Position numbers and translations under genes: made by a program. The notes below the pieces were generated by a model. That model was not told the DNA's origin and made no database searches. It saw nothing but the letters and a program-made list of their open reading frames with translations. Source: a virus. From it: 40,847 bases of DNA. Positions 1 to 24,607 of this stretch are shown here, one piece after another. Within the stretch, counting starts at the first letter, position 1. The number at the start of each line of letters is the position of its first letter. The stretch lies in the UHGV virus genome UHGV-0390358, one strand, 5' to 3'.

Positions 1-1
1 G

Positions 2-166
2 CCTGGTGCGAATCTCTGGTACTTGAAGGCGGCTCTCGATCACATGATCTTTAACCAGATGCAGGAGTATTTTTCACCAGGCTATTTGCGTAAAATGGAG
101 CAACGTTCGAAGAAAGAGTTTAACCAGACATACTGGTGGCGACCACAGGATGTCACTCCGCAATAA
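2..166 (+). CDS. 3' end of a CDS truncated by the window start; function unknown
   Basis: Open frame from position 2 to TAA at 164-166 (...YLRKMEQRSKKEFNQTYWWRPQDVTPQ*); no start codon in window. Confidence 0.3.
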   Translation, partial: PGANLWYLKAALDHMIFNQMQEYFSPGYLRKMEQRSKKEFNQTYWWRPQDVTPQ

Positions 167-177
167 AAGGAGATATG

Positions 178-300
178 ATGGTTCAAATAACTTTTATTGT
201 ACTAATATGTGCAGCGTTTTTATGCTATTCATACATTTTGATAAAAATGGGTTTCAATTGGAATCTCTGTTGCGTGCAGCGGCATGGTTCGGCTTTGTAG
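178..300 (+). CDS. Small hydrophobic peptide (40 aa), unknown
   Basis: AGGAG at 168-172 then ATG at 178; MVQITFIVLICAAFLCYSYILIK... ; preferred over the overlapping 150..338 frame, which has no ribosome-binding site. Confidence 0.3.
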   Translation: MVQITFIVLICAAFLCYSYILIKMGFNWNLCCVQRHGSAL

Positions 301-385
301 TATTCGGAATTGTATTGTTCGGAAGAATAATAAAATAACTAGTTAATTTGTGGATTGGTGCTGTTTTTCCATGATAGGGGTAATT

Positions 386-766
386 ATGAGAAAAGTATTT
401 TTGATTTTTGGATTTATGCTTCTCGTTGGATGCCAGTCAGCTGCACAGTTTGAAAGAAATATGCTTACGTGGCGCGGGCAGAGTATAGACGCAATGGTTC
501 AGCAGTGGGGGTATCCTCAGGGAGAGCTTACATCTCCAGATGGAAACAGAGTGTATGTTTACTCAAGCTCTGGTAGTTATAACGTACCACAAACCACAAC
601 GTATAATACTACGTCTAATCTAATTGGTAATACTATATATTCAAACACATACGCAACAACTGATGGCGGTTATACACTCCATTTCAGTTGCTCTGTTTAC
701 GTTGAGTTTGGTGCTGATAAGATTATTAAAAATGTTACATGGCGCGGTAATAATTGCGTTGCGTGA
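386..766 (+). CDS. Phage-encoded lipoprotein (signal peptide + lipobox LLVGC), unknown function
   Basis: ATG at 386 preceded by AGGGG; N-terminus MRKVFLIFGFMLLVGCQS; AT-rich; followed by terminator. Confidence 0.6.
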   Translation: MRKVFLIFGFMLLVGCQSAAQFERNMLTWRGQSIDAMVQQWGYPQGELTSPDGNRVYVYSSSGSYNVPQTTTYNTTSNLIGNTIYSNTYATTDGGYTLHFSCSVYVEFGADKIIKNVTWRGNNCVA

Positions 767-774
767 CATGTCAC

Positions 775-800
775 AGGCCGCTTTCGCGGCCTTGTTTTTA
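775..800 (+). terminator. Rho-independent terminator after lipoprotein gene
   Basis: AGGCCGC-tttc-GCGGCCT stem-loop followed by TGTTTTTA. Confidence 0.5.
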
Positions 801-1012
801 ACGAATGCCACCGCCACCCGGGCGGGAATCCGCAGAACGCCCACCGCAGCGGGAGCCGTCAGCAGCAGTGTCGCTGTCGTGCTGACAACGACCGGCAAAG
901 GCCTGAGTTGAAGCTACCAGAGACAACAAAACGAACAGTGCAGCAAATGCTTATTTCCATCTATAAGCCACCTCAATGTGGCGTCAATGAGTGTAGCACT
1001 GACTTTTGTTTC

Positions 1013-1040
1013 GTCCATAAAAAAGCCCTCAGTGCGGGCT
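1013..1040 (-). terminator. Rho-independent terminator of the two-gene minus-strand operon
   Basis: On minus strand AAGCCC-gcactga-GGGCTT followed by TTTTTAT, immediately after the TAA stop at 1040-1042. Confidence 0.5.
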
Positions 1041-1417
1041 TAATTAACTTCGAGGATAATAGAATCTTTAGACTTGAATCCCACTTTCCTCATGGCTGTA
1101 ATGACGTTTTGGATAACCCACGTTTTCCCAAACTCTCTTTCGTGTACAATGGCGCAAGGAAAATGAAGGGCGCTTTTGTTGCACTTTATGGTGAAAGTTG
1201 TACCTTCAGCAAAATCCAAAACAGTCTGCAGATGTGCAGATATAAACGATTTAAACACATCTTCAAGCTCAGCAAGAGTAATTGGCGGTTTGTTCCTCTC
1301 GTCGTTCAGGCGTTCATATGCTGCGTGAAATGAAAAGTGAATTCTTGCCGCATCTTCTTGCAAGATCTCGTTAATCTCATCCTCAAGATCAATGAGTTGT
1401 TGTTCTGTTATAGACAT
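1040..1417 (-). CDS. Hypothetical protein, 125 aa, acidic N-terminus; second gene of a two-gene operon
   Basis: ATG at 1417 overlaps the upstream gene stop (ATGTCTATAA), indicating translational coupling; ends at terminator. Confidence 0.5.
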   Translation of the reverse strand: MSITEQQLIDLEDEINEILQEDAARIHFSFHAAYERLNDERNKPPITLAELEDVFKSFISAHLQTVLDFAEGTTFTIKCNKSALHFPCAIVHEREFGKTWVIQNVITAMRKVGFKSKDSIILEVN

Positions 1418-1626
1418 AGATAACGGGAGGTCGCCTCACTTATTTTTTGATTTAATTCATCATCATTGGATGCACGTACAGTAGCAACATGCTTACTTTG
1501 GCGTAGGGTCCCAATTCTGATATCAAATTCTTCATTATCGAAAGAGTCAACGAAAACAGCTTTACCAGTTTCTGGATGGTAAAAAGAGGCATAGTTTTGG
1601 TTGAGTTGCATATCAAATTTAAACAT
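1408..1626 (-). CDS. Hypothetical protein, 72 aa; first gene of a two-gene operon
   Basis: Strong ribosome-binding site GGGAGGA 5 nt before ATG at 1626; operator-like palindrome upstream at 1744-1758. Confidence 0.55.
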   Translation of the reverse strand: MFKFDMQLNQNYASFYHPETGKAVFVDSFDNEEFDIRIGTLRQSKHVATVRASNDDELNQKISEATSRYLCL

Positions 1627-1824
1627 ATCATCCTCCCATACGGGAACAGACGTGACTTACATACGGTGTGATTTTGACTAGTTAACTTTCTGCAGCAAAA
1701 CCATCACGGTAACTACAAACTAAAATGTTACAAATCAACTTTCTTACCTTTGGGGTAATAGTACGCTATTCACCTGCAATCTGTACAGAATTATTTAAAG
1801 GCACATCCCTGTGCCGCCGTTCTG

Positions 1825-2511
1825 TCAGAAGACCCCTGCCTTGTCGTTGATGTATTCCGCGTGGGTCTGGATATCACGCAGGCATTTACTCACACCGACG
1901 ATGTAGCAGAACATGGTGGTCAGTTCCGCCGCCGCGCCCGATACGTCGTGCCCGTCTTCCTGTAACTGGTTCAGCAGATTCATCAGCAGTGAGTTCTCCG
2001 TCAGGCCGAGAACACCAGACGGCGAGTGAATCAAACTGCGGTAGCCGGGCTTCAGCGGGGCGCTGTAGGTGTTGTTCTCTATCTTCATTGCCTGCATCAC
2101 TGCTGACGCCGTGGCGTTGGCTACCTGGTCGGCAACCATCTTTATGCGTTCTTCCTGCGGGAGCGAGTTTTTAATGTAACTTCCGGTGCGGCGGATCTGA
2201 GGAAGAACCTCACCCGTAACCCATTTACGAAAGCGGTAGGGGATAGTGCCTGGTGTCACCGCATCGCGGCAGCGGAGGATCAGTGTGTAGAGGCCTGACT
2301 CGTTGATAATATTGGTTTCGCCTTGACGGCCTAAGTTAAATTTAGCCCTTTCATCATCATCAAGAGATTTTATTGACATAGTGGGGTTTGTCAGTTGAAG
2401 AGCTTTAATAACGTCTTTGGCAACAAACCAAGGATTTCCATCAATAACAATGGCTCGAATGGTTGCCTCTGATTCAAAATGAAAAACAGATGGGGTTACG
2501 TTAGCAGTCAT
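1825..2511 (-). CDS. Bro-N domain + KilA-C (phage antirepressor-type) domain protein
   Basis: N-terminal FHFESEATIRAIVIDGNPWFVAKDVIKAL matches the Bro-N signature; C-terminal domain is paralogous to the 3657..3914 protein; start taken at internal ATG 2511 (MTANV...) rather than the ORF-track start 2664. Confidence 0.65.
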   Translation of the reverse strand: MTANVTPSVFHFESEATIRAIVIDGNPWFVAKDVIKALQLTNPTMSIKSLDDDERAKFNLGRQGETNIINESGLYTLILRCRDAVTPGTIPYRFRKWVTGEVLPQIRRTGSYIKNSLPQEERIKMVADQVANATASAVMQAMKIENNTYSAPLKPGYRSLIHSPSGVLGLTENSLLMNLLNQLQEDGHDVSGAAAELTTMFCYIVGVSKCLRDIQTHAEYINDKAGVF

Positions 2512-2905
2512 AGTGATCACCTTTGTAGTTAGGTTAATCACCACTACCGACGCCAATCGGTTGGTGGTGAACTGTGCAGGGTTGGCGTAACCGGCTACAA
2601 AGGACCCGGCGCACCTTTCGGTGCCCCCACACAGCCCACCATAGAATAGGTGCGCTTTACACATAAAAAAACCGCTTATGCGGCATATGTGCCTCTGTAG
2701 TAACCCGGGACGCCAATCCCGGCACTGGATTTTGCCAGTGCCCGATTACTATGGCACAAGAGGAGTGCGATGTAAATTTACCGCAAAGGTAATGATAAGC
2801 GCGAAGAAATATTAAAATCAACCGTATTTGGTTGATTGCGTTTAACGCTTGATCACCTGAAAGCAAGATATTACCTTTAAGGTAATGTTATTGTGAGGAA
2901 AAGCA

Positions 2906-3634
2906 ATGGAAGTTTTCTGGATAGTTGTTGGTGTGGTTGCGGTGATTATTTACGTTATCAACCAGAACAAGACTAAGATCTCTGATCGTACGGTCGTTAA
3001 TCAGAACAAAACGATAAAGACCGAAGATGGGGAGGTAACGATTAGTCGTACACAGGTGATAGAACACACATCTACTCAGTTTCAAAAAACTGGAGGTAAC
3101 GCGCCTGATATTTCCGTACCTCCTGCTTATGATAGTGCGGTAATCCAGACATATTATAAACAGCAGGAGTTTGCAAAAGAGAGGCAACTGATTCAGCCAA
3201 AGCCGTTTACAGCTGAGCTTCCACCTGGAGTGTCAACGCGTCCGGCATATCATGGAAGATTCCCTGGTGATGACATATCGTCTCAGTCATCTAAAAAAGC
3301 ACCTCAGGCAGTATCAGAGCCAGCAAGAATACCTTCTGTATCGCCGCCAAAAGAAGAATCAGCTAACAGAGTTTCAAGTGGCCGCAAGCAGTGTTTGCGA
3401 TGCAGAATAAACCTTCCATATGACAAATTCCGGAAATCGTCAAAAAATCCAGATGGATTGACTAAGTGGTGTGCAAGGTGTCTCGATGGCCCAAAGAATA
3501 CACGCCATATGAAGTGGTGCCCAATTTGTAATGTCCGCAGAAAACGGACCAGCTTTTACCCTAATAATCAAAATGCGGACGGCTTAATGGCATGGTGCAA
3601 AACGTGCTGGGACGAGCACAAAGCGAAACGATAG
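2906..3634 (+). CDS. Membrane-anchored protein with two C-terminal CxxC...CxxC zinc-ribbon-like repeats, unknown function
   Basis: ATG at 2906 with GAGGA ribosome-binding site; N-terminal TM helix; repeats CLRC..DGLTKWCARC and CPIC..DGLMAWCKTC; operator palindrome 2871-2885 immediately upstream. Confidence 0.6.
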   Translation: MEVFWIVVGVVAVIIYVINQNKTKISDRTVVNQNKTIKTEDGEVTISRTQVIEHTSTQFQKTGGNAPDISVPPAYDSAVIQTYYKQQEFAKERQLIQPKPFTAELPPGVSTRPAYHGRFPGDDISSQSSKKAPQAVSEPARIPSVSPPKEESANRVSSGRKQCLRCRINLPYDKFRKSSKNPDGLTKWCARCLDGPKNTRHMKWCPICNVRRKRTSFYPNNQNADGLMAWCKTCWDEHKAKR

Positions 3635-3656
3635 GCCGCTCTTGCGGCCTTTAAAT

Positions 3657-3914
3657 TTACCGGGTTTGTTTTCGTAATTGTTCGGCACAATAGTCGAGAT
3701 GTGTTTGCAGATCCTGCATAGACATCTGTGAGCTGGTGACGTAGTTAATCAGTGCAGTCAGTTCGGCAAGTGGGCCATCGACATTAAATCCATCCTTATC
3801 GAGATCTCGGAGTAATTTCATCAAGTGCGATCCCTCCACCAGTGACCTGACGCCTCCCGGCGTGTGAATCCTTTCGGTAAATCCGTTTTCCAGTGGATAG
3901 TGATACTGCTGCAT
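3657..3914 (-). CDS. Stand-alone KilA-C-like small protein; candidate SOS-inducible antirepressor
   Basis: Paralogous to the C-terminus of the 1825..2511 protein (HTPGGVRSLVEGSHLMKLLRDL... versus HSPSGVLGLTENSLLMNLLNQL...); GGAG ribosome-binding site favours the ATG at 3914 over 3929; LexA box 6 bp upstream. Confidence 0.6.
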   Translation of the reverse strand: MQQYHYPLENGFTERIHTPGGVRSLVEGSHLMKLLRDLDKDGFNVDGPLAELTALINYVTSSQMSMQDLQTHLDYCAEQLRKQTR

Positions 3915-3934
3915 CTTAATCTTCTCCATGCAAT

Positions 3935-3954
3935 AACTGTATATTTATACAGTA
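3935..3954. promoter_or_regulatory. LexA (SOS) box
   Basis: AACTGTATATTTATACAGTA, CTGT-N8-ACAG with AT-rich spacer, 15 of 16 core positions matching the E. coli consensus; overlaps a TATAAA -10-like hexamer of the leftward promoter. Confidence 0.7.
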
Positions 3955-4110
3955 GCAAATAATTTGTTTGCTATCCAGCACGTTTTGCAAATTACCTGAA
4001 AGGTAATATCTATTCGTATTTACAGCCTTTCTATCCATATGTGGTTTTTCAGGTAATAGAATAACCAGATATGCGGCGCAACGGGTGCTGCGACTATCTG
4101 GAGATTTAAC

Positions 4111-7100
4111 ATGACGGTCTCAACCGAAGTTGACCACAACGAATACACCGGTAACGGCGTTACGACATCGTTTCCGTATACTTTTCGAATTTTCAGAAAA
4201 TCAGACCTGGTTGTTCAGGTGTCTGACCTGAACGGGAACGTAACAGAATTGGTTCTGGATACCGGTTATACGGTAACTGGGGCGGGCACTTATAGTGGCG
4301 GTTCTGTGGTTCTTCCGTCTCCGCTTGCTACTGGATGGCGAATTACGATAGATCGTGTGCTTGATGTAGTGCAGGAGACAGACCTTCGCAATCAGGGAAA
4401 ATTTTTCCCCGAAGTGCATGAAGATGCCTTTGACTACCTGACGATGCTGATCCAGCAATGTTTTGGGTGGTTCAGACGTGCATTGATGAAACCATCTTTG
4501 CTTGCAAAATATTACGATGCAAAGCAAAACAAAATTTCTAACCTTGCAGATCCATCATTTGAGCAGGACGCTGTAAATAATCGCTCAATGCGTAATTATG
4601 TCGATGCTGCAATCGCCGGGGTTGTTGGTGGTTTTGGTTGGTTTATTCAGTATGGTTCTGGGGCTGTGTACCGAACGTTCCAGGATAAAATGCGTGATGC
4701 TATTAGCCCCAAAGATTTTGGAGCTGTTGGTGATGGTATAAATGACGATTCCACTGCAATAAGCGCGTGCCTTGAAGCCTCATCTCCAGTTTATAAAATT
4801 GACGGATTAGGGCTTACTTTTAAAGTATCAACTCTTCCGGATGTCAGTCGATTTAAAAATGCTCGTTTTTTATTTGAGAGAATACCGGGTCAGCCTCTTT
4901 TTTATGCTTCTGAAGATTTTATCCAGGGAGAGTTATTTAAAATTACAGATACACCGTGGTACAACGCCTGGACGCAGGATAAAACGTTTGTATATGACAA
5001 TGTCATCTATGCGCCTTTTATGGCTGGAGACCGCCATGGTGTAAATAACCTCCATGTTGCATGGGTTCGCTCAGGAGATGACGGGAAGACCTGGACAACG
5101 CCGGAATGGCTTACAGATTTACATGAAAACTATCCCACAGTTAACTATCACTGCATGTGTATGGGGGTTGTCAGAAATCGCCTTTTTGCTGTAATTGAGA
5201 CGCGGACCGTGAGCGGAAATAAACTGCAGGTTGCAGAGTTGTGGGATCGCCCAATGAGTCGCAGCCTTCGCGTTTATGGTGGTATAACGAAAGCAGCAAA
5301 TCAGCAAGTCGCTTATATTCGCATTACTGATCACGGATTATTTGCTGGTGATTTTGTCAACTTCTCAAACTCTGGTGTTACAGGTGTTACCGGGAATATG
5401 ACGGTGACTACTGTTATTGATAAAAATACTTTTACAGTTACGACGCAAAATACCCAGGATGTGGATCAGAATAACGAGGGTAGATACTGGAGTTTTGGTA
5501 CATCATTTCACTCTTCACCATGGAGAAAAACCAGTCTTGGAACTATTCCTTCTTTTGTTGACGGAAGCACTCCTGTTACTGAGATTCACAGTTTTGCGAC
5601 GATTAGCGATAACAGTTTTGCTGTTGGCTACCATAATGGTGATATTGGTCCACGCGAGCTTGGGATACTCTATTTCTCTGATGCTTTCGGTTCTCCTGGT
5701 AGCTTTGTTCGCAGACGCATACCTGCAGAATATGAGGCGAATGCATCTGAGCCATGTGTAAAATATTATGATGGCATTCTGTATCTGACGACCAGGGGGA
5801 CATTAAGTACTCAACCCGGTAGTTCATTGCACAGAAGCTCTGATTTAGGTACATCATGGAATTCTCTTCGCTTCCCAAATAATGTTCATCACTCAAACCT
5901 TCCTTTTGCCAAAGTTGGCGATGAGCTGATTATTTTTGGCAGTGAGCGCGCATTTGGTGAGTGGGAAGGAGGAGAGCCTGATAACCGTTATGCAGGAAAT
6001 TATCCAAGAACATTTATGACCAGAGTTAACGTCAATGAGTGGAGTCTGGATAATGTAGAGTGGGTTAATGTTACTGATCAGATTTATCAGGGCGGAATAG
6101 TTAACTCTGCGGTTGGTGTTGGTTCAGTTTGTATCAAAGACAACTGGCTGTACTACATTTTCGGTGGGGAAGACTTTCTAAACCCATGGAGCATAGGGGA
6201 TAACAACAGAAAATATCCTTATGTTCACGATGGTCACCCGGCTGATTTGTATTGTTTCAGGGTGAAAATTAAACAGGAAGAATTTGTTTCAAGGGATTTT
6301 GTCTACGGAGCCACTCCTAACAGAACGCTTCCTACTTTTATGTCGACGTCAGGCGTGAGGACGGTTCCTGTACCCGTTGATTTCACAGATGATGTTGCCG
6401 TCCAGTCACTGACTGTCCATGCAGGTACATCAGGACAAGTTCGCGCGGAAGTCAAACTTGAGGGTAATTACGCCATTATTGCGAAGAAAGTACCGTCTGA
6501 TGATGTTACCGCTCAGAGATTAATCGTTAGCGGCGGTGAAACAACGTCTTCAGCAGATGGTGCAATGATAACGTTGCATGGTTCCGGAAGCAGTACTCCA
6601 CGTCGCGCGGTATATAACGCACTCGAACATCTTTTTGAGAACGGAGATGTTAAACCTTATCTTGATAATGTAAATGCTCTTGGTGGTCCGGGAAACAGGT
6701 TCTCGACAGTTTATCTTGGCTCCAATCCTGTGGTTACCAGTGACGGAACATTAAAGACAGAGCCGGTCTCTCCTGACGAAGCATTGCTGGATGCCTGGGG
6801 TGACGTCAGGTATATCGCTTATAAATGGCTGAACGCTGTCGCTATAAAGGGGGAAGAAGGGGCGAGGATACATCATGGTGTAATCGCGCAGCAACTTCGT
6901 GATGTTCTTATTTCTCACGGACTCATGGAAGAAGAAAGCACAACATGCCGCTATGCCTTTCTTTGCTATGACGATTATCCCGCAGTATATGATGACGTCA
7001 TTACTGGCCAAAGGGAAATGCCGCTGACTGATAATGACGGGAGCATCATTGTTGATGAGGATGATAATCCAGTGATGGTAATGGAAGACATCATTGAGCG

Positions 7101-7230
7101 CGTTGAAATAACGCCAGCAGGATCTAGATGGGGGGTCAGACCTGATCTCTTATTCTATATCGAGGCAGCATGGCAGCGCAGAGAAATGGATAAGATAAAA
7201 GAGCGGATTCAGTCTCTGGAAGAACGTTAA
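4111..7230 (+). CDS. Tailspike endosialidase (endo-N-acetylneuraminidase) with C-terminal intramolecular chaperone domain
   Basis: 1039 aa; conserved podovirus tailspike N-terminal head-binding region; sialidase Asp-boxes SGDDGKTW and SSDLGTSW; C-terminal HGVIAQQLRDV... autoproteolytic chaperone-type domain. Confidence 0.85.
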   Translation: MTVSTEVDHNEYTGNGVTTSFPYTFRIFRKSDLVVQVSDLNGNVTELVLDTGYTVTGAGTYSGGSVVLPSPLATGWRITIDRVLDVVQETDLRNQGKFFPEVHEDAFDYLTMLIQQCFGWFRRALMKPSLLAKYYDAKQNKISNLADPSFEQDAVNNRSMRNYVDAAIAGVVGGFGWFIQYGSGAVYRTFQDKMRDAISPKDFGAVGDGINDDSTAISACLEASSPVYKIDGLGLTFKVSTLPDVSRFKNARFLFERIPGQPLFYASEDFIQGELFKITDTPWYNAWTQDKTFVYDNVIYAPFMAGDRHGVNNLHVAWVRSGDDGKTWTTPEWLTDLHENYPTVNYHCMCMGVVRNRLFAVIETRTVSGNKLQVAELWDRPMSRSLRVYGGITKAANQQVAYIRITDHGLFAGDFVNFSNSGVTGVTGNMTVTTVIDKNTFTVTTQNTQDVDQNNEGRYWSFGTSFHSSPWRKTSLGTIPSFVDGSTPVTEIHSFATISDNSFAVGYHNGDIGPRELGILYFSDAFGSPGSFVRRRIPAEYEANASEPCVKYYDGILYLTTRGTLSTQPGSSLHRSSDLGTSWNSLRFPNNVHHSNLPFAKVGDELIIFGSERAFGEWEGGEPDNRYAGNYPRTFMTRVNVNEWSLDNVEWVNVTDQIYQGGIVNSAVGVGSVCIKDNWLYYIFGGEDFLNPWSIGDNNRKYPYVHDGHPADLYCFRVKIKQEEFVSRDFVYGATPNRTLPTFMSTSGVRTVPVPVDFTDDVAVQSLTVHAGTSGQVRAEVKLEGNYAIIAKKVPSDDVTAQRLIVSGGETTSSADGAMITLHGSGSSTPRRAVYNALEHLFENGDVKPYLDNVNALGGPGNRFSTVYLGSNPVVTSDGTLKTEPVSPDEALLDAWGDVRYIAYKWLNAVAIKGEEGARIHHGVIAQQLRDVLISHGLMEEESTTCRYAFLCYDDYPAVYDDVITGQREMPLTDNDGSIIVDEDDNPVMVMEDIIERVEITPAGSRWGVRPDLLFYIEAAWQRREMDKIKERIQSLEER

Positions 7231-7536
7231 AAAAAAGCCCGCAATATTTTGCGGGTATCAAAAACGGAGTTTGTGAAAAGTTATCTTTGAATTCTATCAT
7301 GAATCAGTACGTATTTTAAATACATGTTCAGGTTTATTACACCATAGCATTATTAAATACAAAATTAAGTCTATGGTTCCTGTACAACTGCCCCCACTCT
7401 GCTGGCTCGTTCTGTAAAATCATTAGTACTTTTATTGAGATATATGATATGGAACAATAATGATTCATATATGGTTTACTATGCGGGGTTAGTCATCAAT
7501 AATTGACTGGCTTATAGATAGTAAACAGGAGAAAGT

Positions 7537-7941
7537 ATGTCTGCTCAAGTAACAAGTGAGCAATTAAATCAGTTGCTTAGTTTTGGTTCTCTTGCTGCGG
7601 TTATTGCAGGTGTCCCTCCGGAGGTTGCTTTAGGGGCTTTGGCTGGGGCGGTAATTTTTGTTACCTCTGCAGTAGAGTACCCCATCCGTCGCCGGGTGCT
7701 CCTTTCGATGCTCAGCTTTCTTTGTGGCCTTCTCTTTTACAAACCAGCAGCATCAATTCTTATCGGCATAGCCAGCCTGATCCCTACCATCACGCAGGAC
7801 TCTTTTGAAAAAGGGATTGTTTTCTCTGCAGGCGCATTCGTGTCAGCAATTGTCGCTGTGCGTATTGGTATATGGCTCTATCACCGTTCCGATAATCCAC
7901 GCGAGTTAATTCCGGGGAGAAAAGACGATGGTAACGCATGA
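7537..7941 (+). CDS. Putative holin-like membrane protein
   Basis: AGGAG ribosome-binding site; 134 aa with several predicted TM segments; first gene of a cassette followed by endolysin and spanins. Confidence 0.45.
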   Translation: MSAQVTSEQLNQLLSFGSLAAVIAGVPPEVALGALAGAVIFVTSAVEYPIRRRVLLSMLSFLCGLLFYKPAASILIGIASLIPTITQDSFEKGIVFSAGAFVSAIVAVRIGIWLYHRSDNPRELIPGRKDDGNA

Positions 7942-8236
7942 GTTTTTTTTGCTTATCACCAATGCAGTTATTTGCACTGGCATAGCAATTCGCGTTGTCA
8001 CATTCCGGCGTAACGGCTCTCAACATCGAAGGTGGGGAGGATGGCTTGCTTATTTCCTGATTGTTGCTGCGGCCAGTATTCCTGTTCGAGTCGCCTATGC
8101 AATCTGGTTACGTACGCCAATGGCTGTGGATTTATCTGAGGTCATTATCAACGCTGTCATGCTGGCTGCGGTTATTAAAACGCGCGGTAACGTCGTTCAA
8201 ATTTTTAAAGTATCGAGGTCTAAACATGGAGATTAA
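7928..8236 (+). CDS. Putative holin/antiholin-like small membrane protein
   Basis: 102 aa hydrophobic protein; start overlaps previous gene; immediately upstream of endolysin. Confidence 0.4.
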
Positions 8237-8855
8237 ACAATTCCAGCGAGCTGCTGGTACCAGCGAGGCACTGGCCGCACGCTGGTTCTCGCATATAACT
8301 TCTGCGATGAAAGAGTTTGGTATCAGCAAAGCAGAAGATCAGGCAATGTTTATTGCTCAAGTCGGGCATGAGTCTGGGGGCTTCACCAGGTTGCAGGAGA
8401 ATTTCAACTACAGTGTCAGCGGACTGGCTAACTTCGTTCGGGCTGGGCGTCTCACTCAGGGGCAGGCTAATGCACTGGGGCGCCGTGCTGGTGAACCACC
8501 ATTGCCACTTGAGCGCCAGCGCGCGATCGCAAATCTGGTATACAGCAAACGCATGGGGAACAATGCCCCTGGTGATGGCTGGAATTACCGAGGGCGCGGA
8601 CTTATCCAGATTACCGGTTTGAATAACTATCGTGATTGCGGAAACGGTCTGAAGGTTGACCTGCTGGAGAGCCCTGAACTGCTGGCGCAGGACGAATATG
8701 CGGCTCGTAGCGCGGCGTGGTTCTTCGCCAGCAAAGGATGCATGAAGTATACCGGCGATATTGCACGTGTAACTCTGATTATCAATGGTGGCAGAAACGG
8801 TATCGACGACCGGCGTGCGCGGTACATCACAGCAAGTAAGGTACTGGCGGTATGA
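8226..8855 (+). CDS. Endolysin, glycoside hydrolase family 19 (chitinase-like) type
   Basis: ATG at 8226 (ribosome-binding site GAGG); motifs [12 protein letters not shown] and [12 protein letters not shown] typical of GH19 phage endolysins. Confidence 0.8.
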
Positions 8856-9349
8856 TCTGGGCATTTGTAAAAGCATACCGTAAACAGTTACTTATCGTGG
8901 CGATGCTTGCTGTTCTGGTCATATCAGGAGTTGTTGCCTGGAATGTGCACGGCATCCGTCAGTACGATGCCGGGTATGCGCAGGCGAAGGAAGATCAGAA
9001 ACAGGCTGATGATAAGTTAAGGTCACAGCGTGAGCAGGAGAAAACACAAATTGAACGTGAAGCACAATCCCGTATCGATGCGGCGCGTGCTGATGCTGAG
9101 TATGCTAATTCCGCTGCTGACAGCATGCGCGCCGAGCTTGACAAAACCAGGCGGCTCGCCGAACACTATACCGGATCTTTCCCCCCTGGCACGCCAGCCA
9201 GCAAGGTCATCGGTGTGCTCGCCGACATGCTTGAAGAAAGCAACCGAGTTTACAACGCAACAGCAGCTGAGGCTGAAAAGTATCGTATCGCAGGGGAATT
9301 CTGCGAGCAGCAATACGATTCACTGAAGAAGCAAAAATCGTGGCACTGA
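8852..9349 (+). CDS. Rz-like inner-membrane spanin
   Basis: N-terminal TM helix followed by charged coiled-coil region; directly after endolysin. Confidence 0.65.
9078..9326 (+). CDS. Rz1-like outer-membrane lipoprotein spanin, embedded in the +1 frame of the Rz-like gene
   Basis: Embedded ORF with lipobox LLTAC, Pro/Ser-rich; start codon choice uncertain. Confidence 0.4.
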   Translation: MRRVLMLSMLIPLLTACAPSLTKPGGSPNTIPDLSPLARQPARSSVCSPTCLKKATEFTTQQQLRLKSIVSQGNSASSNTIH

Positions 9350-9354
9350 TTTCC

Positions 9355-9616
9355 GGTGACGGTATATGAAACGGTACGGGAAAAGTTGAGGCTTGGAAAA
9401 GTGTTATCACTCAATTGGTTATGGTTGTCGTAAATAATCGAGTGGGAATGATTAACAGCTAACTCATAGCAACTCATTCCTATTCAGATACCAATTTAAC
9501 CCTCTGTTTTTACAGAGGGTTTTTGTTTTTATGTATTCATTTCTATTCACTCTACACCATATTTTTCGTCGGTACAGGTGACGGTATTACCTTAAAGGTA
9601 TACTCTCATACCGTCA
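9355..9616. repeat. Candidate attP arm region: GGTGACGGTAT repeats upstream of the integrase gene
   Basis: GGTGACGGTAT at 9355-9365 and 9577-9587 (direct), inverted copy ATACCGTCA at 9608-9616; core site not identified. Confidence 0.3.
9499..9530 (+). terminator. Rho-independent terminator downstream of lysis cassette
   Basis: ACCCTCTG-ttttta-CAGAGGGT followed by TTTTTGTTTTT. Confidence 0.6.
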
Positions 9617-9643
9617 TGAAAATGGTTTCTATACGGGTGAATT

Positions 9644-10894
9644 GTGCTTACCGATACAAAATTAAAAAACCTCAAGCCGCAGGACAAACTGTACAAGGTC
9701 TCCGATCGTGACGGGCTGTATGTAGCTGTGCTTACGTCAGGCACGGTCTCGTTTCGCTATGACTACCGTATCAACGGTCGCCGCGAAACACTGGTAATCG
9801 GGCAGTATGGGCGTGACGGTATCAGCCTGGCAGAAGCGCGAGAAGAACTGATTGCTGCAAAGAAGCTGCTTAAAGCAGGCCAGTCACCGGCTGCGGCTAA
9901 ACGTGACGGTATCAAAAAGATTCGTGGTGCCGAGACGTTTGCGGTACATACCGACAGTTATATGAAACACGTCATCCTGGCTGACAGTACCCGCGCAATG
10001 AAACAGGCGGTGATCGACCGTGACATACTTCCGGTTCTTGGCAATAAAATGATGGCTGAAATTACCACATCGATGGTTCGTGATTTGTGTGACCGGATTG
10101 TCGAACGCGGTGGCCGGGCAACAGCAGTACAGGCCAGGGAGATCATCAGCAGCGTATACCGTCACGCCAATGACCGTGGTCATGGTTTGTTTAATCCTGC
10201 GGCTGACATTAAACCTTCGTCTATCGCCATATTTAAACCACGAGAGCGAACACTGACACCAGAAGAAATTGGCCTGTTCTTCCGCACGCTGGATGCCATT
10301 GGTGCTATGGGCACTATGAAAATGGCTTTAAAGCTGGTGCTTATCACTATGGTTCGTAAAGGCGAATTCACCAATGCAACGTGGGATGAAATAGATTTTA
10401 AAAAATGGACATGGACAATTCCTTCAGACCGCATGAAGGGAAGCCGGGCGCACGTTATTTACCTGCCTAAACAGGCACAGGATATATTGGTTGGGTTGCA
10501 GATGTGCGCTGGTGGAAGTGAATATCTGGTTCCTGGTCGTTACAATTTCCGGAAGCCATTATCTAATGCCGCGCTGAACTCTCTGATCGACAGAACGGTG
10601 AAAATAATAAATGAAGATGGTGAGCATATTCAGGACTTCACCGTACACGATATGCGCCGTACAGCCAGTACGTTGTTGCATGAGGCTGGTTATCCTTCAG
10701 ACTGGATTGAAAAGGCTCTGGCACATGAGCAGAAAGGTGTGCGCGCCGTATATAACAAAGCGGAATACGCCAGACAGCGCGCCTACATGTTGCAGCAGTG
10801 GGCCGATATGATTGATTCCTGGATTAACGGGGAGCATACGGATCTGATTCCGTTCTCCCCGTCGAAGTTTGAGAAGTGGATGGCGGGGGAATAA
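9644..10894 (+). CDS. int: Tyrosine site-specific integrase
   Basis: GTG start at 9644; N-terminal LTDTKLKNLKP...YRINGRRETLVIG arm-binding-type domain; C-terminal catalytic region HDMRRTASTLL...AVYNKAEY. Confidence 0.85.
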   Translation: MLTDTKLKNLKPQDKLYKVSDRDGLYVAVLTSGTVSFRYDYRINGRRETLVIGQYGRDGISLAEAREELIAAKKLLKAGQSPAAAKRDGIKKIRGAETFAVHTDSYMKHVILADSTRAMKQAVIDRDILPVLGNKMMAEITTSMVRDLCDRIVERGGRATAVQAREIISSVYRHANDRGHGLFNPAADIKPSSIAIFKPRERTLTPEEIGLFFRTLDAIGAMGTMKMALKLVLITMVRKGEFTNATWDEIDFKKWTWTIPSDRMKGSRAHVIYLPKQAQDILVGLQMCAGGSEYLVPGRYNFRKPLSNAALNSLIDRTVKIINEDGEHIQDFTVHDMRRTASTLLHEAGYPSDWIEKALAHEQKGVRAVYNKAEYARQRAYMLQQWADMIDSWINGEHTDLIPFSPSKFEKWMAGE

Positions 10895-10897
10895 CGT

Positions 10898-11092
10898 TTA
10901 ATTATTCTGCTGATTTTCTTCCATCTCGGCTTCTGCTGCCAGTGATTCAATTTTGTTTTCGAATATTGCTGACAGTGTTGCAAATTCAGCATCAGTGACA
11001 GCGGGAATTGGAACAAACCTGATCCCGCTGTGTGCAAGCATGTTTGCAGTTTCAAGGCATTTTCTTAAATCTGCTGGTGATGCCCTGTTCAT
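10898..11092 (-). CDS. Small acidic protein (64 aa), translationally coupled to the methyltransferase gene; alternatively a frameshifted methyltransferase C-terminus
   Basis: ATG at 11092 overlaps methyltransferase stop (ATGA); protein-like sequence ...IRFVPIPAVTDAEFATLSAIFENKIESLAAEAEMEENQQNN. Confidence 0.3.
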   Translation of the reverse strand: MNRASPADLRKCLETANMLAHSGIRFVPIPAVTDAEFATLSAIFENKIESLAAEAEMEENQQNN

Positions 11093-11739
11093 GCAGCACG
11101 CTCCCGCCCCTGGTTGTCTGTTGGTGACAGCGGAGCATTGCTGAATGCATTTGTTAATCCGCCAATATCCAACGCGTATCCAGGGTGTAGTTGCACTGCC
11201 GGGTCTTCGCACTGATTACCCCAAACATCGAAGCCATGAGACGTCTGGCGGGCGAACAGTTCAATGCGAGAAACATCGCCTAATAATTGCACAAGTTTTT
11301 CACGAACGATATCTGGCTTTCTTGAATGCTCAAGCCGCGGTGCGGTAAATGACTGAACGATCCCTGCATTAATGCGCGTAGGTAGTTTTCCCTTTACCGC
11401 AAACAGGCAATCTTCACTATTGGCGCGAGTCATGTGTCCCATACCCATAACCAGTTTATCTGGTTGTCGACTACCACATTTTATCCACGTGAAGCCCTTC
11501 ATGGTCATCAGACGGAATCCCCAGGCTTCAACAACTTTTAGCGCTTCGAGTGGTTGTGTTGGCACCCACCACATGGCCAACAGACAGTTTTCATCGGCCA
11601 AATCCCACACAGGAAGGCGGCAGATATCCATCACACTCATAACCGGATATTTAAAACTGGCACCGCGATTACCATCTGCGGCTTTGTCCCGGTATACCCA
11701 GGGTGGATCTGCATAGATTAGTGTGTATTTCTTAGTCAT
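11089..11739 (-). CDS. DNA N6-adenine methyltransferase, MT-A70 family (orphan methylase)
   Basis: Motif IYADPPW near N-terminus; ribosome-binding site GGGGTGG. Confidence 0.8.
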   Translation of the reverse strand: MTKKYTLIYADPPWVYRDKAADGNRGASFKYPVMSVMDICRLPVWDLADENCLLAMWWVPTQPLEALKVVEAWGFRLMTMKGFTWIKCGSRQPDKLVMGMGHMTRANSEDCLFAVKGKLPTRINAGIVQSFTAPRLEHSRKPDIVREKLVQLLGDVSRIELFARQTSHGFDVWGNQCEDPAVQLHPGYALDIGGLTNAFSNAPLSPTDNQGRERAA

Positions 11740-12031
11740 AAACCACCCCGCAACATCCTATACCGCTATAGTCTCCACGGCGAAGGCCGTTACCTTTTGT
11801 GATACATTGGTCCCTGCGAACCGCGATCCTTGCACGCTCAACATCACCAGAAGCAACATCCATACACTGAAGCCAAAGGTGAGCGGCAATGCGGAACTGC
11901 CCTTTTTTCTCTCTTTCAATCGCGCGTTTTTCGATCTCTATCGCCGCAGGAGTAACGGCGACAATCTTTGACGGACTGCGCATTGAAACCTTATTCATGT
12001 GATATTTTTCAAGTCGGCTTAACTTTCTCAC
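11732..12031 (-). CDS. Hypothetical protein
   Basis: ORF between AlpA-like and methyltransferase genes; GTG start with AGAGGG upstream; no recognisable motif. Confidence 0.3.
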   Translation of the reverse strand: MRKLSRLEKYHMNKVSMRSPSKIVAVTPAAIEIEKRAIEREKKGQFRIAAHLWLQCMDVASGDVERARIAVRRDQCITKGNGLRRGDYSGIGCCGVVYD

Positions 12032-12140: not shown

Positions 12141-12389
12141 TCATGCAGCGTTGCTCACGGGACGATATACACGTTGCTGAACAGGAGGTTTTTTACCCTG
12201 GAACTCTGCCGGGCTTGCTGCCTGACGTTCATCAAGCCAACGCTCAACTTCGTCACGGTTCCATGCGCAGCGTTTGTCAGTGATATACCAGCGTTTAGGA
12301 AATTCCCCTGCGCGCTCCATACGGTCGATAGTGCTCCATGACAGTGGCACCACCGCCAGGAGTTCCTTCTTACCTAATGCACCTTTCAT
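12141..12389 (-). CDS. AlpA-family DNA-binding protein (excisionase / transcriptional regulator-like)
   Basis: 82 aa; ...LSWSTIDRMERAGEFPKRWYITDKRCAWNRDEVERWLDE resembles the AlpA family HTH. Confidence 0.55.
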   Translation of the reverse strand: MKGALGKKELLAVVPLSWSTIDRMERAGEFPKRWYITDKRCAWNRDEVERWLDERQAASPAEFQGKKPPVQQRVYRPVSNAA

Positions 12390-24530: not shown

Positions 24531-24607
24531 TGGCGTGGCATGCAGGATTCGAACCTGCGACCAACCGCTTAGAAGGCGGTTGCTCTGTCCAACTGAGCTA
24601 ATGCCAC
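24531..24607 (-). tRNA. tRNA-Arg (anticodon UCU)
   Basis: Reverse complement folds as a 77-nt cloverleaf: 7-bp acceptor stem GTGGCAT/ATGCCAC, D-arm GCTC..GAGC, anticodon loop CTTCTAA, T-arm GCAGG-TTCGAAT-CCTGC, 3' CCA; differs from E. coli argU in the acceptor stem. Confidence 0.9.

What the first reader, a model, noticed from the sequence alone, without database searches (positions are those of the whole stretch)
9350..9643. Candidate attP between lysis cassette and integrase
Two direct copies and one inverted copy of GGTGACGGTAT flank a strong terminator just upstream of the integrase gene, as expected for arm-type integrase sites. Lysis genes abut this region with no host DNA, so the window shows the phage (attP) arrangement rather than an integrated junction.
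Basis: inference. Interest (0 to 1): 0.4.

Follow-up and report, generated by a model that had tools for sequence, protein, structure and literature searches.

The report
Phage attachment site at guaA end
This stretch is the attachment site (attP) that an epsilon15/phiV10-like E. coli phage uses to insert itself at the last codons of the host gene guaA, a site already shown by experiment in near-identical phages, so it is real but ordinary.

Summary
The expected target (tRNA/tmRNA) is wrong, and the site is already known.

- **Genome:** the window is a complete 40,847-bp circular permutation of a Uetakevirus (phiV10/epsilon15-like). It is 99.9% identical to a prophage lying between guaA and yfgI in E. 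coli NZ_CP031215.1.
- **Core:** a four-way attP/attB/attL/attR alignment places the common core at 9437-9453 (ATCGAGTGGGAATGATT). The exact identity block is 9440-9453, which is the last three codons and stop of guaA plus TT.
- **Prior work:** the same core (attgagtgggaatgatt) was shown by PCR and sequencing for phage ZX5, and that paper cites it for phiV10 and epsilon15.
- **Repeat:** the consensus is TGACGGTAT. The epsilon15 GenBank record already marks four copies as integrase-binding sites.
- **Evidence added here:**
  - In 30 guaA-inserted elements from alpha-, beta- and gamma-proteobacteria the motif sits at fixed distances from the core (+127, +139, inverted +168/179, +204, +274), although the flanks are unrelated.
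  - Three more copies lie inside the int coding sequence (9814, 9904, 9948). These are the most synonymously conserved spots of the gene.
  - The "strong terminator" (9498-9530) is a copy of the host guaA terminator. After integration it replaces the original.

Interest is low.

The parts
8852..9349 (+). Last gene of the lysis cassette (DUF2514 / Rz-like spanin); left neighbour of attP
   Evidence: ORF list. Pfam DUF2514, E = 2e-21. The phiV10 homologue is annotated as an Rz-like spanin.
9357..9365 (+).
   Evidence: Exact copy. The equivalent epsilon15 position is annotated 'protein_bind integrase'. The block GTGACGGTATAT-AAACGGTA is identical in all 8 phage attP sequences aligned, except one G for A in the window at 9368.
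9369..9377 (+). Degenerate second P-arm site (AAACGGTAC, 6 of 9), 12 nt after the first
   Evidence: AAACGGTA is conserved in all 8 phages. The 12-nt spacing matches the +127/+139 tandem pair in relatives. That it is a binding site is inferred.
9409..9421 (+). IHF-like site ACTCAATTGGTTA (1 mismatch to WATCAANNNNTTR), 19 nt left of the core
   Evidence: The equivalent epsilon15 position is annotated as an IHF site. It is partly conserved. The evidence is weak: there is no exact consensus match in the region.
9437..9453 (+). attP core ATCGAGTGGGAATGATT. The block identical in attP, attB, attL and attR is 9440-9453 (GAG TGG GAA TGA TT = the last 3 codons and stop of guaA, plus TT). Strand exchange must lie inside 9440-9453.
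   Evidence: Four-way alignment. BLAST pieces of the window against the prophage overlap exactly here. Position 9439 is C in the phage and attR but T in the host and attL. The published core is attgagtgggaatgatt. GAGTGGGA is the crossover core given for GIsul2, another element inserting at guaA; its integrase was not compared with this one.
9498..9530 (+). Intrinsic terminator, a phage-borne copy of the host guaA terminator. In the lysogen it sits directly after guaA. In the phage it ends the lysis transcript before int.
   Evidence: dG -16.2 kcal/mol, z = -5.4. AACCCTCTGTT..TACAGAGGGTTTTT is shared with the MG1655 guaA terminator. It is conserved in all 9 related sequences.
9567..9575 (+). 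Degenerate P'-arm site (CGTCGGTAC) at core +127
   Evidence: CGGTA is invariant in the 9 relatives. Other guaA elements carry a full TGACGGTAT at the same +127 offset. Inferred.
9579..9587 (+).
   Evidence: Annotated as an integrase site in epsilon15. A site at +137 to +140 is present in 26 of the 30 guaA-adjacent loci from three proteobacterial classes.
9608..9616 (-). Inverted P'-arm arm-type site (ATACCGTCA on the + strand) at core +168
   Evidence: Most relatives carry an inverted site at +168/169 (enteric) or +178 to +180 (others).
9644..10894 (+). Tyrosine integrase of the epsilon15 cluster (P4-like / IntSXT subgroup), GTG start
   Evidence: Pfam Arm-DNA-bind_3, Phage_int_M and Phage_integrase. 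The N-terminal domain matches solved CP4-like integrase arm-binding domains 3ju0 and 3jtz. R238, K265, H335, R338, H361 and Y370 are invariant in 25 homologues. The attP-int DNA is 97-98% identical to ZX5 and phiV10; the ZX5 paper gives about 98% for the integrase proteins.
9814..9822 (+). Intragenic TGACGGTAT copy (int codons 57-60), core +374
   Evidence: It is the longest invariant nucleotide run (9 nt) in the first 870 nt of 23 int genes. Synonymous diversity is 0.075 against a gene mean of 0.50. Annotated as an integrase site in epsilon15. Distant relatives with the same amino acids use other codons.
9904..9912 (+). Intragenic TGACGGTAT copy (int codons 87-90), core +464
   Evidence: Second-longest invariant run (ACGGTA). 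Synonymous diversity 0.15. Annotated in epsilon15.
9948..9956 (-). Intragenic inverted copy with one mismatch (ATACCGACA), core +508
   Evidence: The 4-codon window with the lowest synonymous diversity in the gene (0.0) lies at 9944-9955. It is not annotated in epsilon15.
12141..12389 (-). AlpA-family small DNA-binding protein; candidate excision directionality factor
   Evidence: Pfam Phage_AlpA, E = 3e-5. GIsul2 also carries an alpA gene. The role is inferred from P4 Vis, which I recall from memory and did not test here.

Best explanation
The interval is the attP of a temperate epsilon15/phiV10-like podophage (genus Uetakevirus).

**Recombination.** The heterobivalent tyrosine integrase encoded just to the right (9644-10894) recombines the core at 9437-9453 with the identical sequence at the very end of the host guaA gene. 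Exchange occurs within GAGTGGGAATGATT, 9440-9453. Integration rebuilds the last guaA codons (E-W-E-stop), so GMP synthase is unchanged. The prophage lies as guaA - int ... lysis - yfgI.

**Arm sites.** The repeated TGACGGTAT motifs are arm-type sites, bound by the integrase N-terminal Arm-DNA-bind_3 domain:
- one strong and one weak site in the P arm (9357, 9369);
- weak, strong and inverted sites in the P' arm (9567, 9579, 9608);
- three more copies inside the int coding sequence (9814, 9904, 9948).
With a host bending protein (IHF-like site at 9409-9421) they would fold attP into an intasome of the lambda type. The AlpA-like protein (12141-12389) probably directs excision.

**Terminator.** The element at 9498-9530 is a copy of the guaA terminator. 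After integration it terminates guaBA transcription before int, while the original host terminator ends the lysis transcript at the other junction.

**Shown versus inferred.** Shown here: the core, the hybrid junctions, the gene order, the motif enrichment and its conservation. Inferred: Int binding to the motifs, the IHF and AlpA roles, and the terminator's function.
For: - **Circular permutation:** the window matches prophage L004 in two pieces that overlap only at 9437-9453, at 99.85-99.98% identity.
- **Hybrid junctions:** the four-way alignment shows attL = host left plus phage right and attR = phage left plus host right. They share GAGTGGGAATGATT. The 9439 C/T difference segregates with the left flank.
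- **Prevalence:** 543 of 5426 complete E. coli genomes match this region, most as a guaA-int junction starting at window 9437.
- **Experiment in a close relative:** ZX5, about 98% identical in this region, integrates at attgagtgggaatgatt at the guaA 3' end by PCR and Sanger sequencing. The paper cites the same site for phiV10 and epsilon15.
- **Known family behaviour:** the epsilon15 integrase cluster is known to target the 3' flank of guaA. GIsul2, another element inserting at the guaA 3' end, uses the core GAGTGGGA.
- **Integrase:** it has the arm-binding, core-binding and catalytic domains and intact catalytic residues.
- **Motif:** enrichment P about 2e-10. Four copies are annotated as integrase sites in epsilon15.
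- **Motif positions:** offsets from the core are fixed in 30 loci that all have GuaA ...TIEWE* upstream, while the flanks are unconserved. The consensus is TGACGGTA(T/A).
- **Intragenic copies:** they are the synonymous-conservation minima of the gene, and this is not forced by the protein sequence.
- **Terminator:** fold and homology to the host guaA terminator.
Against: - No binding or recombination experiment exists for this exact phage.
- No exact IHF consensus occurs in the region, only one-mismatch sites.
- No sigma-70 promoter for int passes the default scan. The single lenient candidate has a 15-nt spacer.
- The intragenic copies lie 374-516 nt from the core, far beyond the arms of well-studied attP sites. 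They may therefore serve regulation rather than recombination, or nothing that can be detected here.
- The copy at 10156-10165 is not conserved in relatives.
- The phage core differs from E. coli attB at one position (9439, C versus T).
Confidence: 0.9

Rival explanations
1. The window is not a free phage genome. It is the internal junction of two prophages inserted in tandem at guaA, which also gives a lysis-core-int arrangement inside a chromosome.
For: Such junctions exist. E. coli GPEC1186 carries lysis genes, a full attP-like region and int contiguously in its chromosome, with three matching places in the record.
Against: The window is 40,847 bases, exactly one genome unit. Its two ends are contiguous in the prophage (L004 32287/32288), and no host gene is present. 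In either case the sequence at 9350-9643 would still be attP.
Confidence: 0.05
2. The TGACGGTAT repeats are bound by another protein, not by the integrase. Candidates are the AlpA-like directionality factor or a phage repressor. The copies inside int would then be conserved only because of the protein they encode.
For: No binding data exist. The two direct intragenic copies both encode R-D-G-I. An AlpA-family gene is present nearby.
Against: The motif lies on both sides of the core, in both orientations and at fixed offsets across three proteobacterial classes. That is the pattern of arm-type integrase sites, not of directionality-factor sites, which usually cluster on one arm (the general rule is from my own knowledge). 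Every element carrying it encodes an integrase with an arm-binding domain. Relatives with the same D-G-I residues use other codons. The residue before D varies (R, A, P, S, C, I), yet its third base stays T. The third intragenic copy is on the opposite strand.
Confidence: 0.08
3. Recombination uses the longer homology that includes the terminator (9498-9524, 25 of 27 identical to the host guaA terminator). On this view the terminator is part of an extended or second core.
For: Phage and host share AACCCTCTGTT..TACAGAGGGTTTTT downstream of the 17-bp core.
Against: In the lysogen the spacer between core and terminator is phage-type at the guaA-int junction and host-type at the lysis-yfgI junction. 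The terminator variants (TT versus AC in the loop) also stay with their own side. The crossover is therefore left of 9454. Other guaA-targeting elements carry unrelated terminators at the same place.
Confidence: 0.03

Closest known systems
attP of Escherichia phages vB_EcoP_ZX5 and phiV10 and Salmonella phage epsilon15 (genus Uetakevirus), integrating at the 3' end of guaA
   Same: - Same gene order (lysis cassette, attP, int).
- Same core, same terminator and same TGACGGTAT repeats at the same positions.
- 97-98% (ZX5, phiV10) and 83% (epsilon15) nucleotide identity over 9340-10250.
- The core was shown experimentally for ZX5.
   Different: - One base in the core (ATC instead of ATT at 9437-9439).
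- A different tailspike (K1 endosialidase) elsewhere in the genome.
- Nothing differs in mechanism.
Other guaA-targeting elements: the epsilon15 cluster of the IntSXT tyrosine recombinase subgroup (e.g. CMGI-3), and genomic island GIsul2 (guaA 3' end, core GAGTGGGA)
   Same: - Same target, the last codons of guaA, with GAGTGGGA inside the core.
- Thirty guaA-adjacent loci with 47-91% identical integrases share the TGACGGTAW arm motif at the same offsets.
- GIsul2 also carries an alpA gene.
   Different: - Many of those elements are genomic islands, not phages.
- In the distant ones all P' sites lie upstream of int (+127 to +274) and none is inside the gene.
- I did not compare the GIsul2 integrase sequence directly, so I cannot say that it belongs to the epsilon15 cluster.
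Bacteriophage lambda attP (heterobivalent Int, arm-type sites P1, P2, P'1-3, IHF, Xis)
   Same: - A short core flanked by arms that carry a repeated motif different from the core.
- An integrase with a separate arm-binding domain.
- The span from the outermost intergenic sites is about 260 bp (9357-9616), similar to lambda's roughly 240 bp (the lambda figure is from my own knowledge).
   Different: - The integrase is only distantly related (E about 1e-3 to lambda Int structures), with a different arm-binding fold family (Arm-DNA-bind_3).
- The target is the end of a protein-coding gene.
- int is transcribed away from attP.
- Extra motif copies lie inside int.
- The element carries a replacement terminator.
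Satellite phage P4 and KplE1/HK620 IntS systems (P4-type integrases whose attP/attL arm sites overlap the int promoter)
   Same: - A P4-like integrase directly downstream of attP.
- Arm sites lie within 70 nt upstream of the int start, where the only promoter-like hexamers are found.
- An AlpA/Vis-type small protein is encoded nearby.
   Different: - Those elements target tRNA genes.
- Autoregulation is shown there (from my own knowledge) but is only an inference here.

Membership tests
Uetakevirus (epsilon15/phiV10-type) attP at guaA | A core sequence identical to the 3' end of host guaA (attgagtgggaatgatt) | tested here: met
   Window 9437-9453 is ATCGAGTGGGAATGATT, 16 of 17 identical to MG1655 attB. 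The 14 bases 9440-9453 are identical in attP, attB, attL and attR. The published core is given.
Uetakevirus (epsilon15/phiV10-type) attP at guaA | Lysogens carry hybrid attL/attR junctions at that core, with the prophage being a circular permutation of the phage | tested here: met
   NZ_CP031215.1 has guaA-core-int and lysis-core-yfgI junctions. The BLAST pieces overlap at 9437-9453.
Uetakevirus (epsilon15/phiV10-type) attP at guaA | An adjacent integrase of the epsilon15 cluster and genus-typical gene order (tailspike, lysis, attP, int) | tested here: met
   The phiV10, ZX5 and epsilon15 records match over the whole attP-int region.
Uetakevirus (epsilon15/phiV10-type) attP at guaA | Integration at this site demonstrated for this phage | not testable with these tools
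   It is shown only for relatives (ZX5 by PCR and Sanger sequencing). Here it is inferred from a 99.9% identical prophage already sitting in the site.
Complex (lambda-type) attP with arm-type integrase sites | The integrase has a separate N-terminal arm-DNA-binding domain | tested here: met
   Pfam Arm-DNA-bind_3, residues 2-87, E = 4e-20. It matches the solved CP4-like integrase N-terminal domains 3ju0 and 3jtz.
Complex (lambda-type) attP with arm-type integrase sites | A repeated motif, different from the core, on both sides of the core and conserved in relatives | tested here: met
   TGACGGTAT lies at core -83, +139 and +168 (inverted), with weaker copies as well. The phage copies are conserved. 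Offsets are fixed in 30 loci.
Complex (lambda-type) attP with arm-type integrase sites | The integrase physically binds the arm motif | not testable with these tools
   This needs EMSA or footprinting. The epsilon15 'protein_bind' features appear to be predictions.
Complex (lambda-type) attP with arm-type integrase sites | Sites for a host bending protein (IHF) between the arm sites and the core | tested here: inconclusive
   There is no exact WATCAANNNNTTR match in the region. Two overlapping one-mismatch matches lie at 9405-9421. IHF sites are annotated at the equivalent epsilon15 positions.
Complex (lambda-type) attP with arm-type integrase sites | A recombination directionality factor is encoded by the element | tested here: inconclusive
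   An AlpA-family gene lies at 12141-12389. Its role in excision was not tested.
   The core matches the guaA coding end. The only tRNA gene in the window is tRNA-Arg at 24531-24607, far from the site.

The most novel reading that the evidence does not exclude
The three TGACGGTAT-type copies inside the integrase coding sequence (9814, 9904, 9948) are functional integrase-binding sites. They lie within the part of the gene that encodes the arm-binding domain itself. Two consequences are possible: the working attP of enteric epsilon15-cluster elements extends about 600 bp into int, or Int bound there (and at 9567-9616 over the promoter-like hexamers) controls its own synthesis. More distant relatives keep all sites upstream of int. 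The enteric lineage would then have moved arm sites into the coding sequence when its intergenic region shrank.
Probability: 0.5. Interest if true: 0.35.

Novelty: already known. Interest (0 to 1): 0.15.

Why it matters
The finding has practical value only. It fixes the prophage boundaries (guaA/yfgI) and the attP core for this K1-specific Uetakevirus. About one in ten complete E. coli genomes carries a related integrase region at this site.

The comparative results add modest detail to a known system:
- a conserved arm-site layout (TGACGGTAW at fixed offsets) for the whole guaA-targeting integrase cluster; whether resistance islands such as GIsul2, which use the same target, share it was not tested;
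- arm-like sites under DNA-level selection inside int;
- the habit of these elements of bringing a replacement terminator for guaA.

These could guide the design of minimal attP/Int integration tools, but they do not change current understanding.

Tried and rejected
- **Kropinski 2007 (epsilon15 paper):** I tried to read it by DOI and by PMC id. It is not held, so what it says about attP rests on the GenBank features and on the citation in the ZX5 paper.
- **Literature searches:** 'arm-type' with 'guaA', and the motif string itself, gave nothing on the arm sites. The hits were only unrelated primers and the recombinase classification paper.
- **Catalytic domain against solved structures:** the search was swamped by spurious WD40-repeat hits. 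I used invariant residues in 25 homologues instead. A first attempt failed because a truncated and a frameshifted homologue were included.
- **Promoter and IHF scans:** the default promoter scan found no sigma-70 promoter. The exact IHF consensus is absent from the region.
- **tRNA target:** rejected.
- **Terminator homology as crossover site:** rejected.
- **Copy at 10156-10165:** rejected as a conserved site.
- **GIsul2 integrase:** the plasmid protein search did not let me identify it, so no direct identity value is given.

Full report
**What is in the sequence.**
- The 11-mer GGTGACGGTAT occurs exactly at 9355-9365 and 9577-9587.
- The inverted copy at 9608-9616 matches 9 of the 11 bases (ATACCGTCA).
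- Between the copies lies a hairpin with a 10-bp stem and a T-run at 9498-9530. It folds at -16.2 kcal/mol, z = -5.4.
- The DUF2514/Rz-like spanin gene ends at 9349 and a 416-residue integrase gene starts with GTG at 9644.
- The repeats are far beyond chance. With one mismatch allowed there are 8 matches against 0.48 expected, and no shuffle reaches 8.
- The 10-mer GTGACGGTAT has five exact copies in the 40.8-kb window, all between 9356 and 10165.
- The 9-mer is enriched in 9350-9960 with Poisson P about 2e-10.

**What the window is.**
- The region matches phages of the genus Uetakevirus: 97-98% to vB_EcoP_ZX5 and phiV10, and 77-85% to epsilon15, SPN1S, Tyrion, PAT1 and Klebsiella relatives.
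- The gene order is tailspike, holins, endolysin, spanin, attP region, int, as in phiV10.
- The whole window is a circular permutation of a prophage in E. coli NZ_CP031215.1. Window 1-9453 aligns to L004 32288-41753, and window 9437-40847 aligns to L004 884-32287, at 99.85-99.98% identity.
- The two window ends are contiguous in the prophage.

**The core.**
- I aligned attP (window), attB (MG1655 guaA 3' end), and the two junctions of the lysogen.
- The guaA-int junction is host on the left and phage on the right. The lysis-yfgI junction is phage on the left and host on the right.
- All four share GAGTGGGAATGATT (window 9440-9453), preceded by AT and one polymorphic base (9439: C in phage and attR, T in host and attL). 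Exchange therefore happens inside 9440-9453.
- These bases are the last three sense codons and the stop codon of guaA (E-W-E-stop) plus TT, so integration rebuilds an unchanged guaA.
- Of 5426 complete E. coli genomes, 543 match this region, most as a guaA-int junction that begins at window 9437.
The only tRNA gene in the window is tRNA-Arg at 24531-24607.

**Already known.**
- The ZX5 paper (PMC9782041) reports the core attgagtgggaatgatt about 190 bp upstream of int and at the guaA 3' end, verified by PCR and Sanger sequencing of attB, attL and attR. It states that the same sequence had been proved for phiV10 and epsilon15.
- TL-2011b is reported to be inserted in guaA.
- GIsul2 integrates at the guaA 3' end with the core GAGTGGGA, shown experimentally.
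- The epsilon15 GenBank record marks four 'integrase' binding sites, which I verified are GTGACGGTAT at positions equivalent to window 9356, 9578, 9813 and 9903. It also marks three IHF sites and the terminator.

**Evidence that the repeats are arm-type sites.**
- The integrase has Arm-DNA-bind_3, Phage_int_M and Phage_integrase domains.
- Its N-terminus matches solved arm-binding domains of CP4-like integrases.
- R238, K265, H335, R338, H361 and Y370 are invariant in 25 homologues.
- In eight phage attP regions at 77-98% identity the block GTGACGGTATAT-AAACGGTA in the P arm is essentially invariant, as are CGGTA...TGACGGTATTACC...GGTATA in the P' arm, while the neighbouring sequence drifts.
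- A scan of one genome per species returned 47 loci with related integrases.
- In 30 of these the gene upstream ends in GuaA ...TIEWE*. The hosts range from Enterobacteriaceae to Chromobacterium, Rhodocyclaceae, Cupriavidus and Caulobacter.
- These loci carry TGACGGTA(T/A) at nearly fixed distances from the core start: +127 and +139 (direct), +168/169 or +178 to +180 (inverted), about +204 and about +274. The bases around each site show no conservation.
- In the window the +139 and +168 sites are 9579 and 9608. The +127 position holds a degenerate copy (9567, CGTCGGTAC).
- Motif copies on both arms, in both orientations and at fixed offsets, always next to an integrase with an arm-binding domain, are the pattern expected of arm-type sites. 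Binding itself is inferred.

**Copies inside int.**
- I built a codon alignment of 23 integrase genes (59-100% protein identity).
- The three longest invariant nucleotide runs in the first 870 nt are TGACGGTAT (9814-9822), ACGGTA (9906-9911) and TACCG (9949-9953).
- The 4-codon windows with the lowest synonymous diversity are the same three places (0.0-0.15 against a gene mean of 0.50).
- The amino acid before D varies (R, A, P, S, C, I), yet its last base stays T.
- Distant relatives that keep D-G-I use other codons (GAT GGC ATT; GAC GGC ATA) and have no intragenic motif.
- The constraint is therefore on the DNA, not on the protein.
- These sites lie 374-516 nt from the core, within the sequence that encodes the arm-binding domain. 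Whether they belong to attP or act in regulation cannot be decided here.
- The copy at 10156-10165 is not conserved.
- The only promoter-like hexamer pair upstream of int (GTGACG, 15 nt, TATACT at 9578-9604) lies inside the P' site cluster. That would fit autoregulation as in P4 and KplE1 (from my own knowledge), but this is weak.

**The terminator.**
- The hairpin at 9498-9530 is about 93% identical to the guaA terminator of E. coli, which sits 24 nt after the stop codon in the empty site.
- In the lysogen the phage copy follows guaA, and the host copy follows the lysis genes.
- The spacer and loop variants stay with their own side, so the crossover is not in the terminator.
- Several unrelated guaA-targeting elements carry their own hairpin with a T-run at the same place (sequences shown).
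- I infer that the element supplies a replacement terminator that protects guaBA expression and shields int from read-through.

**Verdict.** The target prediction is wrong (guaA, not a tRNA gene). The feature is already known for near-identical phages. What is new here is limited to comparative support for the arm sites, the selection on the intragenic copies, and the replacement terminator. Interest is low.

Noticed in passing
window 4111-7230 (+): The tailspike of this Uetakevirus is an endosialidase (the matching prophage protein is annotated 'endosialidase catalytic beta-propeller domain-containing protein'), so the phage is probably specific for K1-capsulated E. coli. The related ZX5 was isolated on a K1 host.
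   Followed up: partly
window 24531-24607 (-): The phage carries a tRNA-Arg (anticodon TCT) gene. It is also present in the matching prophage.
   Followed up: no
L059 (NZ_CM142789.1 4433452-4441852), locus 3553-5595: A chicken E. coli chromosome holds lysis genes, a complete attP-like region and int contiguously, with three matching places in the record. This looks like two related prophages inserted in tandem at guaA.
   Followed up: partly
plasmid records NZ_CP079771.1 and NZ_CP079768.1 (41,027 bp, duck E. coli): Two records deposited as plasmids encode a 99% identical integrase and have the size of this phage genome. They are probably circular phage genomes assembled as plasmids.
   Followed up: no
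window 9439: The phage core has C where E. coli guaA has T (Ile codon ATC versus ATT). ZX5 and phiV10 have T. In the lysogen the C stays with the lysis-side junction.
   Followed up: yes
window 10156-10165 (-): A fifth exact GTGACGGTAT copy lies inside int, and 16 nt here are complementary to 9807-9822. Unlike the other copies it is not conserved in epsilon15, PAT1 or the Klebsiella relatives.
   Followed up: yes
L024, L027, L035, L036 (first 100 nt after the guaA stop): Unrelated guaA-inserted elements from Morganella, Chromobacterium, an unclassified Proteobacteria MAG and Cupriavidus each carry their own GC-rich hairpin with a T-run about 45-60 nt after the guaA stop. A replacement terminator seems to be a general feature of this element family.
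   Followed up: partly
L025 (Edwardsiella piscicida) and L043: The integrase reading frame is cut short in L025 (338 residues). In L043 it is out of frame from the start I assumed. These may be decayed elements or wrong start coordinates on my side.
   Followed up: no
window 11089-11739 (-) and 11732-12031 (-): Downstream of int, on the opposite strand, lie an MT-A70 family DNA methyltransferase gene and a PerC-family regulator gene, as in phiV10.
   Followed up: no
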